This document shows, piece by piece, positions 23,901 to 26,900 of a stretch of DNA of 64,000 nucleotides. The DNA is taken from NCBI RefSeq assembly GCF_035594765.1, contig NC_085844.1, forward strand, positions 195,812,107 through 195,876,106, read 5' to 3'. The position numbers were made by a program. The stretch comes from Anolis carolinensis. Its lineage: Eukaryota. The number at the start of each line of letters is the position of its first letter. The first letter of the stretch is position 1.

Positions 23901-26900
23901 GTGATGCAGCATCTCTTCTTTCAAAAACACTATAAATAGCTTAAATCATTTGTTAATTACAGTTTAGAAAACAGCCATTAAATCAGTTGGATTTACCTAC
24001 ATGATGACTCACAGTTCAACAATTCTAGCACTTTAAAATATCATAACTATTTTATTCTTTTCATGTAAGTTGCTATGACTTTTTAAAAAAGCAAAACAGG
24101 AAATTGATTAACTAACAAAATGAATAATTAAATCAGTCATCCATCCAATATATTATAACTTTGGAAATTTCTTTATTCACATTTCCATGGATTCCTGGTT
24201 CACTAGAGAGATTCATACCTATTTACTACATCATTTCTCCCCGCCCCAATACTATCAGATCTCATACCTAAAAGAAGTTATCACATTTCTCTTGCACCAA
24301 CTCTGCTTACTTTTATCTTGGGTGTTACTTCATGTGTTCAGACACAATAAATTTGAACACTTCCTCTGGGAATTGCAGTAATGCTCTGAGAAATATCCCC
24401 AAGGTCCCCTCCTTCACTTACCTCACCATTATACTCTTCAGCTCCCACAGCCTGCAGGAAAGTATCAAAGTACTGCCGTGGAATGGTAAGCTGACAAGTG
24501 CCAGTGTCTACAATTGCCTGGCAGCCTTCACTGCACCAGCCAGTGGCCTCGTTGCCAATGGCAAATCTACAGGGAGAAGAGCAAAGAATGTTGTACAGGC
24601 AAAGTTTGTAAGCAAGGAACAAACCAGGTGAAAGCTTGCAATTTTCAATCATTCCCAGAACCAGTGTTTGGAAAAATTACTCTTTTGGATTACAACTCCT
24701 GGGATCCATCAGCTAGCACAAACAATCTCTGTGAAATCTGAAAAGATTATTGAACTGGAGCTGGATTTTGAGCAACCCATTACTATACTCATTTTACCCA
24801 CTGTAGTTACAATCCTTCCATATGGGAAATAAAATAATATTGTCTGTGGTGCTATAGAAGTGTTAAAATACTTTTAGGTTTGTGTGTGTGTGTGTGTGCA
24901 CATGAGCAACAAATATGTACACATTTTTCAAGTAGCAATTCAGCTGTTATAACCCTAAATTTTGTGTAACACTCAAGCTGCACTTTCCTCTTGCTCAGCA
25001 AGTTATTGTTTGTTCATTTATCTCCATCCCTTGTCACTGAGAATGAATGTTCCTTGCAATATGGTTGCAGTAGGCATACAGATCCTGAATTTACAAAAAG
25101 CATAGACTGGATTCTCCTCTCTTGTAACATTCAAGTACAACAGTAATTCCCATTGAACCCTTATTTATTTATTTATTTTTAAAAGTACACAACATTAACA
25201 AGAGTAATGTCATCATCTGTAGGAGTGTCTTTTATGTGACTTTTATTTTATTGTATTATTATTATTACATTATGGCTAAATCTTCCCTTTGAAATGAACA
25301 ATACTTCTGATGCATATCTTTGGTAGGATAACATTTATAATATTAAAATGTTCAGTGCTAGACACAGGAAGGTAGTGATAGTGGAGAGGGACTGATGAGA
25401 GCATGACCCTCCCTATCTCCCACCCCATAAGAATTTAAGAACTCAATTAAATGTGCCTTCAGCTTCCATATTTCTAGCACTGCAGTGATTTAAGATTTCC
25501 AATGAGCAGTTAGAAATACAGTTTATGCATCCAAAAAAGGGGGCAGGCAAAATTACTTGGGAAATTTTATATGTGAATGATTCACAATGTGTCACTGCAA
25601 GACTAGAAATTTTGGTATTGAGGGAAAATTACATGGTGAAGCAGAATTCTTATTTCGGGAAGGGGAGGTCTTCAGGAAATAAGAATGCTTATTTTGGATT
25701 TTGCCTCCCCTGTAGCTACACCTTGAGTCCTTAGTCCTTTCCTCCTGCATATACACACAGATTACACACATACATAAAAAGAGAAAAAGAAATAAGAAGA
25801 AAAATAACTATTTCTTTCAGCAAATAAACTTCCAGTTAGAAACAGGGACCTTTTCTTACCATCTCGGCAAAGCAAAAGGACATCAGATCAGAAAATCAGG
25901 CTTCAGCTATATATGGAACATCACTTACTCTTCAACACCAATTTGCCAATAAACTTCACGGGTGACAGGTGCCCAGGAAACGTCTCCAGAGAATAGTTGA
26001 GTATCAACGCCTCCCAAGATCAGTTCCCCTCCATATTGAACAGTTGGCTGTCTAGTAGGCGAAAATTGGGAGAAAAGAAGTCAAATGTAGATCTATGTTA
26101 AGCTGGAATATGTGCATAGATATCTCTGTGGTCAGAAAACTAGCCCAAAGAAGAAAACATAGATGAATCCTGAATAACCACAACAGCTATTTTTACAACA
26201 TTTTGATTTTCATGCCATGGAGTAAGAGTTAAATGCCCAAGATCTTGCATCAGGATATGTATATGCTACATGTAGCTACATCTCCCCATGCTACCATTGC
26301 ACTGGAGATGTTGTGACACAAAGACACAATGAGGGCCTGACAGGTCTTTTGCAGGTTGCACGTAGTGTTGCAAGATAGGAACCTTCACCATAGGTTGTAG
26401 CTGTGCTTCTATTCTGGTTTGCCACCTTTGTGCAGTTTTGCAAGGTCTTGAACTTTCTTTGCTGAGGTGGCTCATCAAACTACAAATCCCAGGATTGCAT
26501 ACCATTGAGCTGTGGTCATTAAATTAGAAATGAGGTCTCTCAAATAGAAGCTCCAAGTGCCCCTGAAATAGCTTCCCCTTTTGCTTTGGTTCAGAACTAA
26601 GATTACCATATTATGCAAATTGGATGTGCATCCTAATTTGGGGGAGGTAATTTAGCCAAAAAGGTGAGCATTAGATGTGAGTAAACACAATATTTCTCCT
26701 TCAATTTTTTTTCATCCTTCAAAATGAGGATGATTAGGTGAAGAAAACACCACCATCCCTCCAATTTCCATGCATATGATGGAAGAAAAGTCAATTCCTA
26801 TTATATCGAGGGCAATAAACCATCAACAGAATACTATCAAAGAGCAGTAACTTCGTTATTTTAGATCTATTTTTCTAACATCTTGTATTTTCTCTTTGAA

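What the first reader, a model, noticed from the sequence alone, without database searches (positions are those of the whole stretch)
24422..24566. Propeptide conserved, catalytic exon diverged between the duplicates (reverse of the usual pattern)
Hand count: exon 2 (mostly activation peptide) differs at 6 of 51 residues between copies 1 and 2, whereas exon 7 (second catalytic Asp) differs at 14 of 48, concentrated right after DTGT ([11 protein letters not shown] vs [11 protein letters not shown]). Propeptides normally diverge faster. Intron sequence beside exon 2 is still alignable (about 15995-16025 vs 28930-28960). Inference: positive selection on the cleft and/or gene conversion over exon 2.
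Basis: partly seen in the sequence, partly recalled or inferred. Interest (0 to 1): 0.65.

Follow-up and report, generated by a model that had tools for sequence, protein, structure and literature searches.

The report
Two old lizard pepsin B genes
Two neighbouring stomach-protease genes of the green anole are old duplicates that differ most beside the second catalytic aspartate, where substrate choice is set, and stay most alike in the activation-peptide exon; this is an ordinary but neatly documented case of duplicate-gene divergence.

Summary
Exon 7 of copy 2 is 24422-24566 on the minus strand. Copies 1 and 2 differ at 6 of 51 residues in exon 2 and 14 of 48 in exon 7, with 7 of the 11 residues after DTGT changed.

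The window is Anolis carolinensis. It holds three intact nine-exon genes: two pepsinogen B genes (copies 1 and 2) and one Pgc2-type gene (copy 3).

Within the window the contrast is statistically weak:
- Heterogeneity over nine exons gives p=0.59, and the scan statistic gives P=0.17.
- No exon has dN/dS near 1 (exon 7: 0.21; the 11-codon cluster: 0.64).
- Exon-2 dS is not low (0.64 against 0.85 for the gene), and a GENECONV-like test finds no tract.

Recent conversion and ongoing positive selection are therefore not supported.

Orthologues change the picture:
- The two copies belong to two squamate-wide paralogue clades.
- The strictly clade-fixed differences (3 of 384 sites) all lie in exon 7, at pepsin positions 220, 222 and 238. 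Position 219, the known pepsin B specificity residue, also separates the clades.
- Exon 2 evolves faster than average among orthologues, yet paralogues of one lineage are unusually alike there. This points to old gene conversion at the 5' end.

The parts
22635..29287 (-). Copy 2: an intact pepsinogen B gene of clade Ba, 388 codons plus a TGA stop. Exons: 29287-29232, 28925-28772, 28534-28417, 27552-27434, 27124-26925, 26051-25929, 24566-24422, 23623-23525, 22787-22638.
   Evidence: Searches give GT-AG at all 8 introns. All 9 exon peptides occur in order in UniProt G1KVT2 (P0002). Pfam finds A1_Propeptide on exon 2 and Asp on exons 3-9, so 8 of the 8 exons scanned hit.
8816..16178 (-). Copy 1: an intact pepsinogen B gene of clade Bb, 390 codons plus a TAA stop. 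Exons: 16178-16123, 15989-15836, 14688-14571, 12870-12752, 11677-11472, 10872-10750, 10559-10415, 9885-9787, 8968-8819.
   Evidence: Database models of this gene hold 8 of 9 (P0025), 7 of 9 (P0026) and 4 of 9 (P0024) of these exon peptides.
33922..41353 (-). Copy 3: an intact Pgc2-type ('gastricsin-like') gene, 389 codons, with canonical DTGS and DTGTS motifs. It was used as the in-window outgroup. Exons: 41353-41295, 39697-39547, 38956-38839, 38637-38519, 38142-37943, 37259-37140, 35885-35738, 35197-35099, 34077-33925.
   Evidence: The exon 7 search gives 96% identity to Anolis sagrei 'gastricsin-like'. The A. sagrei orthologue sits in the clade with bird, marsupial and amphibian 'gastricsin-like' rows.
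24422..24566 (-). Exon 7 of copy 2 (the finding). It carries the second catalytic Asp in the stretch ...[17 protein letters not shown]...
   Evidence: Alignment to pepsin chains puts D at position 215 and C at 219.
10415..10559 (-). Exon 7 of copy 1, with the stretch ...[17 protein letters not shown]...
24464..24496 (-). The 11 codons after DTGT in copy 2 (pepsin positions 219-229). C219 is the TGT codon at 24496-24494.
   Evidence: Seven of 11 residues differ from copy 1. Local dN is 0.505 and dS 0.79.
10457..10489 (-). The 11 codons after DTGT in copy 1 (pepsin positions 219-229). Y219 is the TAT codon at 10489-10487.
28772..28925 (-). Exon 2 of copy 2: about 39 residues of activation peptide followed by 12 residues of mature enzyme.
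15836..15989 (-). Exon 2 of copy 1.
   Evidence: 6 of 51 residues differ from copy 2, with dS 0.635 and dN 0.051.
15990..16022 (-). The 3' end of intron 1 of copy 1, alignable with 28926-28958 of copy 2.
   Evidence: The blastn block 16022-15823 against 28958-28759 is 86% identical over 200 nt. A similar 35-nt overhang exists upstream of exon 9.
28417..28534 (-). Exon 3 of copy 2. The first catalytic motif reads D-S-G instead of D-T-G, and position 13 is Tyr.
   Evidence: D-S-G occurs in 3 of 9 clade Ba rows: Anolis, Sceloporus and Pogona.
9787..9885 (-). Exon 8 of copy 1: 99 nt, in frame, aligned without gaps to copies 2 and 3.

Best explanation
Copies 1 and 2 are ancient tandem paralogues of pepsinogen B in Anolis carolinensis. 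They are not recent duplicates. They represent two clades, here called Bb (copy 1) and Ba (copy 2). These clades separated before the iguanian radiation, and most probably before crown squamates. Both genes are intact and under purifying selection along their whole length.

Two separate processes produce the exon contrast.

1. **Exon 7 carries the lasting, paralogue-specific changes.** Copy 1 and its orthologues keep the pepsin B state Phe/Tyr219-Leu220, as mammalian, bird and snake pepsin B do. Copy 2 and its orthologues carry Cys219-Gln220-(Leu)-Thr222 and Glu238. Position 219 is a known specificity determinant of pepsin B. Positions 220 and 222 line subsites S4 and S2+S4 in chymosin. The inferred effect is a different substrate preference of the two enzymes. 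Further anole-lineage changes at 225, 228 and 229 add to the local cluster.

2. **Exon 2 is not slow by constraint.** Among orthologues it is one of the fastest exons. It is alike between the paralogues because the 5' end (exon 2, perhaps exon 1) was homogenised by gene conversion. This happened after the gecko lineage split off but before Iguania and Lacertoidea separated. A separate event occurred in the Eublepharis lineage. The conversion is too old to leave a low dS or alignable introns today.

**Shown:** gene models, counts, dN and dS, clade membership, site distribution, distance ratios.
**Inferred:** conversion as the cause of the exon-2 pattern, a change of specificity, and selection as the cause of the exon-7 fixations.
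For: **Identity and integrity**
- Exon 7 of copy 2 is 100% identical to Anolis carolinensis G1KVT2. That protein holds 9 of 9 of my exon peptides.
- All 24 introns are GT-AG and all three ORFs are open.
- Pfam Asp or A1_Propeptide hits 8 of the 8 exons scanned.

**Old paralogues**
- I used 47 of the 156 proteins returned. In their tree, a pepsin B clade (SH-aLRT 100) holds a squamate group that splits into Ba and Bb.
  - Ba has 9 rows and support 95: copy 2, Sceloporus, Pogona, Varanus, Podarcis, Tiliqua and 3 geckos.
  - Bb has 4 rows and support 94: copy 1, Lacerta, Salvator and a second Eublepharis gene.
- The AU test rejects copy 1 and copy 2 as sisters: p=7.6e-6 on exons 3-9 and p=0.004 on exons 3-6.
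- dS is 0.85, and only the exons plus at most 35 nt of flank align.

**Purifying selection**
- dN/dS is 0.13 overall and 0.03-0.23 per exon.
- dN to copy 3 is equal for both copies (0.291 and 0.291).
- Copy 1 has 13 unique states spread over 8 of 9 exons, similar to Lacerta (11), Salvator (16) and Podarcis (15).

**Exon 7**
- Eight of 9 Ba rows have C219 (Pogona has T) and 9 of 9 have Q220. All 4 Bb rows have F or Y at 219 and L at 220.
- The strictly fixed clade differences number 3 of 384 sites, and all lie in exon 7 (Fisher p=0.0018).
- Sites with no shared state number 4 of 48 in exon 7 against 3 of 336 elsewhere, all 3 of those in exon 9 (p=0.0057).
- The ratio of paralogue to orthologue differences is 1.76 in exon 7, the highest of 9 exons (P=0.007).
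- Numbering was fixed by alignment to pepsin chains.
- Castro et al. 2012, PMC3298455 (Discussion read), state that Tyr13 and the Phe at 219 are crucial for pepsin B specificity. They cite Kageyama 2006, and their text prints the residue as 221.
- PMC3640475, Table 4 (passage seen), assigns chymosin residue 221 to S4 and 223 to S2+S4. With Asp216 as reference these equal pepsin 220 and 222.

**Exon 2**
- Same-lineage paralogues differ at 16 sites against 29 for cross-lineage paralogues. The ratio is 0.55 (bootstrap 0.34-0.78), while the other eight exons give 0.85-1.00 (permutation P=0.00045).
- Without the second Eublepharis gene, paralogue over orthologue differences are 0.65 in exon 2 and 0.60 in exon 1, against at least 1.07 in the other seven exons (P=0.0025). 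For the anole alone the count is 6 against 10.3 (P=0.023).
- Quartet site patterns in exon 2 are 6 same-lineage, 1 orthology and 0 third. In the other exons they are 6, 11 and 0.
- The exon-2 tree groups Ba and Bb rows of Iguania plus Lacertoidea together (support 85). Exons 3-9 reject that grouping (AU p=0.010).
Against: - **The window alone is weak.** Heterogeneity among exons is not significant (p=0.59, 0.13 and 0.29). The cluster's scan statistic gives P=0.17.
- **Conversion has no DNA-level support in the anole.**
  - Exon-2 pS is 0.43 against 0.52 in the other exons (p=0.44).
  - Exon-1 dS is saturated.
  - No concordant run is significant (P=0.55).
- **Tree tests on exon 2 lack power.** On exon 2 alone, the AU test cannot reject the Ba clade (p=0.26) or the Bb clade (p=0.30).
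- **The anole-lacertid quartet shows no excess of same-lineage sites in exon 2** (1 against 1). The signal depends on the comparison with geckos.
- **Clade Bb is thin.** It has only 4 rows, one of them partial, and only one gecko row.
- **Deep orthology rests mainly on exons 7 and 9.** On exons 3-6 alone, Ba and Bb are neither supported nor rejected (AU 0.25 and 0.35). A clade joining gecko Ba and Bb fits slightly better there.
- **Other placements are loose.** The snakes (3 rows) are unplaced, and Sphenodon has L219-Q220. The timing of the changes at 219 and 220 is therefore not fixed.
- **The trees are 'quick' searches** with SH-aLRT support only.
- **No codon model was run, and no enzyme data exist** for either lizard protein.
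Confidence: 0.6

Rival explanations
1. Chance. The two copies evolve under one uniform level of constraint. The reader picked the lowest and the highest of nine noisy exon values.
For: - Chi-square over nine exons gives p=0.59 for amino-acid differences and 0.13 for nonsynonymous differences.
- Exon 2 against exon 7 gives p=0.044, but this is the best of 36 exon pairs.
- The scan statistic for the 11-residue cluster gives P=0.17, and the rest of exon 7 sits exactly at the gene mean.
Against: - The same contrast recurs in Eublepharis and in lacertids.
- The site-permutation tests single out exon 2 (P=0.00045 and 0.0025) and exon 7 (P=0.007).
- All 3 strictly fixed clade differences fall in exon 7.
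- The residue concerned is the published specificity residue of pepsin B.
Confidence: 0.15
2. Shared constraint rather than conversion. Both zymogens of a species are activated in the same stomach. Their activation segments therefore accumulate the same lineage-specific replacements in parallel.
For: - The same-lineage signal is seen at the protein level only.
- Anole synonymous sites of exon 2 are not significantly more alike than those of other exons.
- No conversion tract is detectable.
Against: - Several of the shared states are conservative swaps (V/I, K/E, N/K) with no evident functional link.
- Exon 2 is among the fastest exons between orthologues, which speaks against tight constraint.
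- The Pgc1 gene of the same species does not share these states (alignment).
Confidence: 0.12
3. One reading: a recent or ongoing conversion keeps exon 2 alike, and current positive selection drives the cleft residues of exon 7 apart within the anole lineage.
For: - Exon 2 has the highest nucleotide identity together with exons 3 and 8 (86-87%).
- Three of the 7 cluster differences are young: R225 occurs in the anole alone, and F228 and D229 are shared only with Sceloporus.
Against: - Exon-2 dS is 0.64.
- Introns are unalignable.
- The run test gives P=0.55.
- dN/dS is 0.21 in exon 7 and 0.64 in the cluster.
- Copy 2 is 94% identical to its Sceloporus orthologue over exon 7 and over the whole protein.
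Confidence: 0.05
4. Copy 1 is a decaying pseudogene (the 'PsiPgb' of the 2012 paper). The divergence in exon 7 would then be relaxed constraint.
For: - Castro et al. 2012 report a frameshift in exon 8 of a second anole Pgb-like gene (passages).
- The Ensembl models of copy 1 read around exon 8.
- The NCBI model lacks exons 3 and 4.
Against: - In this window all nine exons are open, with GT-AG introns, both catalytic motifs and the six conserved Cys.
- dN/dS is 0.13, and dN to copy 3 equals that of copy 2.
- Unique states number 13, are evenly spread, and match its orthologues in count.
- Orthologues exist in Lacerta, Salvator and Eublepharis.
Confidence: 0.03

Closest known systems
Mammalian pepsinogen B / pepsin B (dog, pig; Narita et al. 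2002 and Kageyama 2006, as cited in PMC3298455)
   Same: - Copies 1 and 2 fall in the same clade (SH-aLRT 100).
- Position 13 is aromatic: Phe in copy 1 and Tyr in copy 2.
- Copy 1 has an aromatic residue at 219 (Tyr), like the Phe or Tyr of the mammalian rows.
   Different: - Copy 2 and 8 of 9 rows of its clade have Cys219, and all 9 have Gln220.
- Copy 2 also has D-S-G at the first catalytic motif.
- No enzymology exists for either lizard protein.
Anolis carolinensis Pgc cluster as described by Castro et al. 2012 (PMC3298455: Pgc2, Pgb, PsiPgb, Pgc1)
   Same: - It is the same locus and the same gene types: two Pgb-type genes beside a Pgc2-type gene in tandem.
- That copy 1 is their PsiPgb is my inference. 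It rests on the exon-8 workaround in the Ensembl models.
   Different: [quoted passage not shown]
- Here it is intact, and its lineage has orthologues in lacertids, teiids and a gecko.
- Their Figure S1 is a supplement that I could not open.
Human gastricsin / progastricsin (PDB 1avf, 1htr)
   Same: - It is the closest solved structure for exons 2, 3 and 7, with E-values of 9e-9, 3e-19 and 4e-17.
- The pro segment and both catalytic motifs align without gaps.
   Different: Gastricsin has Ser219-Leu220 and a non-aromatic residue at position 13. It belongs to the Pgc1 clade.
Mosaic concerted evolution of tandem duplicates, where conversion homogenises some exons while others stay apart (general textbook pattern; recalled, no paper read)
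   Same: - Exon 2 shows within-lineage likeness.
- Exon 7 holds the fixed differences.
   Different: - The conversion inferred here is very old and leaves no tract in present DNA.
- It is supported only by protein comparisons.

Membership tests
Peptidase family A1 (pepsin-like aspartic proteases), zymogen form | Two catalytic Asp motifs, D-T/S-G, one in each lobe | tested here: met
   Copy 1 has DTGS and DTGT. Copy 2 has DSGS and DTGT. Copy 3 has DTGS and DTGT. They align to D32 and D215 of pepsin chains.
Peptidase family A1 (pepsin-like aspartic proteases), zymogen form | Pfam Asp domain (PF00026) and A1 propeptide (PF07966) | tested here: met
   In copy 2, scanned exon by exon, exon 2 hits PF07966 (E=1.4e-11). 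Exons 3-9 hit PF00026 at consecutive profile positions 2-313. Copies 1 and 3 were not scanned.
Peptidase family A1 (pepsin-like aspartic proteases), zymogen form | Six conserved Cys, forming three disulfides in pepsins (the pairing is recalled, not tested) | tested here: met
   The six Cys columns are present in copy 2 and in the window's reading of copy 1. Copy 2 has a seventh Cys at position 219.
Pepsinogen B (Pgb) lineage | Groups with mammalian pepsin B to the exclusion of Pgc1 and Pgc2 | tested here: met
   A clade of 25 rows has SH-aLRT 100. This is a quick tree without bootstrap.
Pepsinogen B (Pgb) lineage | Aromatic residue at position 13 (Tyr13 in dog pepsin B, per PMC3298455 citing Kageyama 2006) | tested here: met
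   Copy 1 has Phe13 and copy 2 has Tyr13. Pgc1 rows have Ser or Leu, and copy 3 has Ser in the window's reading of exon 3.
Pepsinogen B (Pgb) lineage | Aromatic residue at position 219 (Phe219) | tested here: not met
   Met in copy 1 (Tyr219). Not met in copy 2 (Cys219) or in its whole clade, where 8 rows have C and 1 has T, out of 9. Copy 2 is therefore a pepsin B by descent but departs at a specificity-defining residue.
Pepsinogen B (Pgb) lineage | Pepsin B enzymology: preference for Phe-X bonds and poor haemoglobin digestion | not testable with these tools
   This needs expressed enzyme.
Gene conversion between paralogues | Paralogues of one lineage more alike than paralogues of different lineages, or than orthologues, in a bounded segment | tested here: met
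   Exon 2 gives ratios of 0.55 (P=0.00045) and 0.65 (P=0.0025). The other exons give 0.85-1.00 and at least 1.07 respectively, except exon 1 at 0.60 in the second test.
Gene conversion between paralogues | Reduced synonymous and intron divergence inside the tract | tested here: inconclusive
   Exon-2 dS is 0.64 against 0.85 for the gene. pS is 0.43 against 0.52 (p=0.44). Exons 2-3 pooled give 0.40 against 0.54 (p=0.073). Introns are unalignable.
Gene conversion between paralogues | Significant shared fragment (GENECONV-type test) | tested here: not met
   The longest concordant run between copies 1 and 2 is 9 polymorphic sites, in exon 8 (P=0.55). The test was my own implementation on 477 polymorphic sites.
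Gene conversion between paralogues | Phylogenetic incongruence between segments | tested here: inconclusive
   The exon-2 tree mixes Ba and Bb rows, and exons 3-9 reject that grouping (p=0.010). Exon 2 alone cannot reject the Ba or Bb clades (p=0.26 and 0.30).
Positive selection on the substrate cleft | dN/dS above 1 in the segment or on a branch | tested here: not met
   The pairwise value is 0.21 for exon 7 and 0.64 for the 11 codons. Branch-site tests could not be run because no orthologue DNA was on hand.
Positive selection on the substrate cleft | Fixed paralogue differences concentrated at substrate-contact positions | tested here: met
   All 3 strict sites, and 4 of the 7 relaxed sites, lie in exon 7 at positions 219, 220, 222 and 238. 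Subsite roles come from the passages.

The most novel reading that the evidence does not exclude
Squamates carry two long-lived pepsin B lineages. One of them (anole copy 2) replaced the specificity-determining aromatic residue 219 and Leu220 by a free Cys and Gln, next to the catalytic Asp. This would make a gastric protease with a new S3/S4 preference and possibly thiol-dependent behaviour. Repeated gene conversion keeps the activation segment of the two zymogens matched, while selection holds the cleft exon apart. The supposed anole pseudogene would then be the conserved, ancestral-type partner of that pair.
Probability: 0.35. Interest if true: 0.5.

Novelty: new member of a known kind. Interest (0 to 1): 0.33.

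Why it matters
The finding turns a hand count into a testable statement about how duplicated digestive proteases diverge. The lasting differences between the two lizard pepsin B genes sit at residue 219, the residue already shown to set pepsin B specificity in mammals, and at its neighbours.

It also revises a published reading of the anole locus. The second Pgb gene is intact in this sequence. It belongs to a squamate-wide lineage rather than being a private, dead duplicate.

The exon-2 result is a small worked example. Pairwise dN/dS inside one genome misses both old conversion and old adaptive fixation. Comparing paralogue and orthologue distances exon by exon recovers them.

None of this touches a long-standing open question. 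The processes involved are standard.

Tried and rejected
- **Exon 4 as the most diverged exon.** A crude comparison of open-frame fragments suggested 61% identity for exon 4. With true exon borders, exon 4 differs at 9 of 39 residues and exon 7 is the most diverged.
- **The unpaired Cys219.** I looked for a clade-specific partner Cys and found none. Ba rows have the six usual Cys plus Cys219, and two rows have a Cys in the signal peptide.
- **Recent acceleration or decay of copy 1.** Rejected by equal dN to copy 3 and by ordinary, evenly spread unique states.
- **Intron conservation beside exon 2 as a sign of conversion.** Rejected as uninformative. The overhang is 33 nt, exon 9 has 35 nt, and every exon has a few.
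- **Conversion from copy 3 into exon 7 or exon 9.** Concordance is slightly raised (copy 2 with copy 3 in exon 7: 16 of 62; copy 1 with copy 3 in exon 9: 18 of 55). The longest runs are only 3 sites, with P=0.92 and 0.88.
  - Structure prediction and fold search, because the outputs give no coordinates with which to measure contacts.
  - The genome-contig scan, because that collection holds only bacteria and archaea.
  - The search of protein representatives, because its 50% clustering would merge all these genes.
- **Literature.** Three searches found no paper in the held library on squamate Pgb duplicates or on conversion between pepsinogen B genes.

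
Full report
**1. What is at the coordinates**

The stretch 24422-24566 read on the minus strand gives [48 protein letters not shown], flanked by an AG acceptor and a GT donor. A six-frame self-comparison of the window shows three tandem copies of a nine-exon gene, all on the minus strand.

- I set the exon borders by reading the codons of all three copies side by side and checked them by script.
- All 24 introns are GT-AG.
- The coding lengths are 1170, 1164 and 1167 nt, and no frame is broken.
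- Pfam, scanned exon by exon on copy 2, finds the A1 propeptide on exon 2 and consecutive parts of the eukaryotic aspartyl protease domain on exons 3-9. That is 8 of the 8 exons scanned; exon 1 is too short to scan.
- The only run of N (21019-21162) lies between copies 1 and 2, outside any exon. I left it alone.

**2. How the searches were done**

I built and searched no full-length model of my own. Where a full-length row was needed I used proteins that the database returned.

**3. Whose genes they are**

- Exon 7 of copy 2 is 100% identical to Anolis carolinensis G1KVT2 (22 proteins with E at most 0.001 among 24 candidates). That protein contains all 9 of my copy-2 exon peptides, at the expected positions.
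- Exon 7 of copy 1 is 100% identical to three other A. carolinensis models (16 proteins among 25 candidates).
- Exon 7 of copy 3 is 96% identical to an Anolis sagrei 'gastricsin-like' protein (144 among 170 candidates). No A. carolinensis row was returned for it.

The window is therefore green anole, not human.

I used 47 of the 156 returned proteins for a tree. I dropped the unnamed rows, fragments, isoforms and most of the many gastricsins. In that tree:

- Copies 1 and 2 lie in the pepsinogen B clade (25 rows, SH-aLRT 100) with mammalian pepsin B, two birds and tuatara.
- The A. sagrei orthologue of copy 3 lies in the clade of 'gastricsin-like' genes of birds, marsupials and amphibians.

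These are the Pgb and Pgc2 lineages of Castro et al. 2012 (PMC3298455; abstract, passages and Discussion read). They described this anole cluster as Pgc2, Pgb, a Pgb-like pseudogene and Pgc1.

**4. The observation**

- Exon 2 differs at 6 of 51 residues and exon 7 at 14 of 48.
- Seven of the 11 residues after DTGT differ.
- Exon 2 is mostly activation peptide. Its residues 2-38 align to residues 6-42 of the 43-residue pro segment of human progastricsin.
- The intron upstream of exon 2 aligns for 33 nt.
- The premise that the propeptide exon normally evolves faster is borne out here. Within six groups of orthologues, exon 2 runs at 1.09-1.76 times the protein's mean divergence and exon 7 at 0.67-1.15.

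**5. Is it more than chance, judged from the window alone?**

Hardly.

- The nine exons do not differ significantly: p=0.59 for amino-acid differences, 0.13 for nonsynonymous and 0.29 for synonymous differences.
- Exon 2 against exon 7 gives p=0.044, but that is the lowest of 36 possible exon pairs.
- The 11-residue window after DTGT is the densest in the gene, yet a window that dense arises in 17% of permutations. Outside it, exon 7 differs at 7 of 37 residues, exactly the gene mean of 19%.

**6.

Nei-Gojobori estimates on in-frame codons, exon by exon with split codons left out, give:

| Segment | dS | dN | dN/dS |
|---|---|---|---|
| Whole gene | 0.85 | 0.109 | 0.13 |
| Exon 2 | 0.64 | 0.051 | 0.08 |
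| Exon 7 | 0.83 | 0.177 | 0.21 |
| 11 codons after DTGT | 0.79 | 0.505 | 0.64 |

- Nothing exceeds 1, and exon-2 dS is not low.
- Against copy 3, exons 2 and 7 have the same dN (0.28 and 0.30 for copy 1; 0.26 and 0.28 for copy 2). The contrast is therefore specific to the pepsin B pair.
- Between copies 1 and 2, only the exons and at most 35 nt of their flanks can be aligned. Exon 9 has an overhang as long as that of exon 2.
- A run-length test in the manner of GENECONV, on 477 polymorphic sites of the three genes, finds no unusual shared fragment. The longest run is 9 sites, in exon 8 (P=0.55).

**7. What the orthologues add: age**

Squamate pepsin B genes fall into two clades.

- **Clade Ba (9 rows):** copy 2 with Sceloporus, Pogona, Varanus, Podarcis, Tiliqua and three geckos.
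- **Clade Bb (4 rows):** copy 1 with Lacerta, Salvator and a second Eublepharis gene.

Support is 95 and 94 on whole proteins, and 88 and 90 on exons 3-9. The AU test rejects a sister relation of copies 1 and 2 at p=7.6e-6 on exons 3-9 and p=0.004 on exons 3-6.

- The duplication is therefore older than the iguanian radiation.
- If the gecko assignment holds, it is older than crown squamates. An abstract in the listing (PMC12629976) puts that crown at about 190 million years.
- A dS of 0.85 fits such an age. This last point is inference.
- It is not the anole-specific duplication that could be assumed when only one reptile genome existed.

**8. What the orthologues add: exon 7**

Alignment to pepsin chains fixes the numbering. 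The residue after DTGT is position 219.

| Group | Residues 219-220 |
|---|---|
| Pgc1 and Pgc2 rows | Ser219-Leu220 |
| Mammalian, bird and snake pepsin B, and all 4 Bb rows | Phe or Tyr at 219; Leu220 in all 4 Bb rows and in 7 of the 11 other pepsin B rows |
| Clade Ba | Cys219 in 8 of 9 rows (Thr in Pogona), Gln220 in 9 of 9 |
| Tuatara | Leu219-Gln220 |

- Cys219 is a seventh Cys with no clade-specific partner.
- Sites fixed in each clade and different between them number 3 in 384. All are in exon 7, at positions 220, 222 and 238 (Fisher p=0.0018).
- Sites with no state shared between the clades number 7. Four are in exon 7 (219, 220, 222, 238) and three in exon 9 (p=0.0057 for exon 7 against the rest).
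- Castro et al. relate, citing Kageyama 2006, that Tyr13 and this Phe are crucial for the substrate specificity of pepsin B. The reference title gives Phe219; their text prints 221.
- In chymosin, the residues equivalent to 220 and 222 delineate subsites S4 and S2+S4 (PMC3640475, Table 4 and a figure legend, passages seen).

The 14 differences in exon 7 decompose as follows:

- 4 old clade differences;
- 2 states unique to copy 1;
- 1 state unique to copy 2 (Arg225);
- 2 states shared only with Sceloporus (Phe228, Asp229);
- 5 differences at generally variable sites.

That the old differences changed specificity, and were fixed by selection, is inference.

**9. What the orthologues add: exon 2**

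If nothing but divergence had happened since an old duplication, paralogues of one lineage should be as different as paralogues of different lineages. They should also be at least as different as orthologues. Three results bear on this.

- *Three lineages with both paralogues* (anole, lacertids, Eublepharis):
  - In exon 2, same-lineage paralogues differ at 16 sites against 29 for cross-lineage paralogues.
  - The ratio is 0.55 (bootstrap 0.34-0.78).
  - The other eight exons give 0.85-1.00.
  - Random sets of 51 sites reach 0.55 with P=0.00045.
- *Without the second Eublepharis gene*:
  - Non-gecko paralogues differ less in exon 2 (6.8 sites) than non-gecko Ba genes differ from their gecko orthologues (10.4 sites).
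  - The ratio is 0.65 (P=0.0025).
  - Exon 1 gives 0.60, and the other seven exons at least 1.07.
  - For the anole pair alone the counts are 6 against 10.3 (P=0.023).
- *Quartet site patterns*: exon 2 gives 6 same-lineage, 1 orthology and 0 third. The rest of the gene gives 6, 11 and 0.

In Eublepharis the two paralogues differ at 4 sites in exon 2, while its Ba gene differs at 8-9 sites from other gecko Ba genes.

The simplest reading is old gene conversion over the 5' end. One event would lie in the common ancestor of Iguania and Lacertoidea after the geckos split off. A second would lie in the Eublepharis lineage.

**10. Weak points**

- Conversion has no DNA-level support in the anole:
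  - Exon-2 pS is 0.43 against 0.52 (p=0.44).
  - Exons 2-3 pooled give 0.40 against 0.54 (p=0.073).
  - Exon 1 is saturated.
- On exon 2 alone, the AU test cannot reject the Ba or Bb clades (p=0.26 and 0.30).
- Between anole and lacertids there is no excess of same-lineage sites in exon 2.
- Clade Bb has only four rows, one of them partial.
- The deep Ba/Bb split rests largely on exons 7 and 9. On exons 3-6 it is neither supported nor rejected.
- All trees are quick searches without bootstrap.
- A rival reading, parallel replacement in both activation segments under a shared gastric environment, cannot be excluded without orthologue DNA.

**11. Copy 1 and the literature**

Castro et al. call the second anole Pgb-like gene a pseudogene with an inserted G in exon 8 (passages and a figure legend; their Figure S1 is a supplement I could not open).

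- The two Ensembl models of copy 1 read through into intron 7 and re-enter exon 8 in another frame. That requires one more G than the window has.
- In this window exon 8 is 99 nt, in frame, and aligns without gaps to the other copies.
- The NCBI model has exon 8 intact but lacks exons 3 and 4. Both exons are intact here.
- Equal dN to the outgroup and ordinary, evenly spread unique states speak against decay.
- That copy 1 is their pseudogene is my inference.

**12. Verdict**

There is no current selection and no recent conversion. There is good comparative evidence for an old, lasting divergence at the specificity residues of exon 7, and fair evidence for old conversion over exon 2.

The processes are standard and the genes are annotated, so this is a new instance of a known kind. 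Three literature searches found no account of the two squamate pepsin B lineages, or of conversion between them, in the held library.

Noticed in passing
window 9787-9885 (exon 8 of copy 1): The gene that the 2012 paper appears to call an anole Pgb pseudogene (extra G in exon 8) is intact here. The Ensembl models P0024 and P0025 read around exon 8 in a way that needs one more G than the window has. This could be an assembly error in the older genome or a segregating frameshift allele.
   Followed up: partly
window 14571-14688 and 12752-12870 (exons 3 and 4 of copy 1): The NCBI model of copy 1 (P0026, 311 aa) lacks exons 3 and 4, and so lacks the first catalytic Asp. Both exons are open with GT-AG borders in the window. 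Skipping them removes 237 nt and keeps the frame. Whether this reflects real splicing is unknown.
   Followed up: no
window 28417-28534 (exon 3 of copy 2): The first catalytic motif of copy 2 reads D-S-G instead of D-T-G. Among the 9 clade Ba rows this occurs only in the three iguanians: Anolis, Sceloporus and Pogona.
   Followed up: partly
window 11474-11677 (exon 5 of copy 1): Copy 1 has two extra codons in exon 5 (68 against 66 in copies 2 and 3), in the loop reading ...AVGHVGGYT...
   Followed up: no
window 21019-21162: A run of 144 N lies between copies 1 and 2. It sits directly beside a repeat that also occurs at about 11631-12063 and 45115-45610.
   Followed up: no
window 4765-5159, 6657-6913, 36341-36642, 40684-41120, 56850-57184, 62355-62528: An interspersed repeat family is present in at least six copies on both strands. 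Two copies lie in introns of copy 3 (in intron 6 and intron 1). It was seen only as six-frame similarity and was not classified.
   Followed up: no
window 63377-63700 (-), also 59569-59841 (-) and 54591-55595 (-): An exon encoding an IRS-type PTB domain (Pfam PF02174, E=1.3e-14) lies here, with further open frames downstream on the same strand, one of them 335 codons long. From recall, this looks like the FRS3-type docking-protein gene that neighbours PGC in mammals. No family was found for the other two frames.
   Followed up: partly
protein rows (not in the window): Tuatara pepsin B has Leu219-Gln220, halfway between the two squamate types. The three snake rows keep Phe219-Leu220 but sit on a long branch, unplaced between Ba and Bb.
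   Followed up: no
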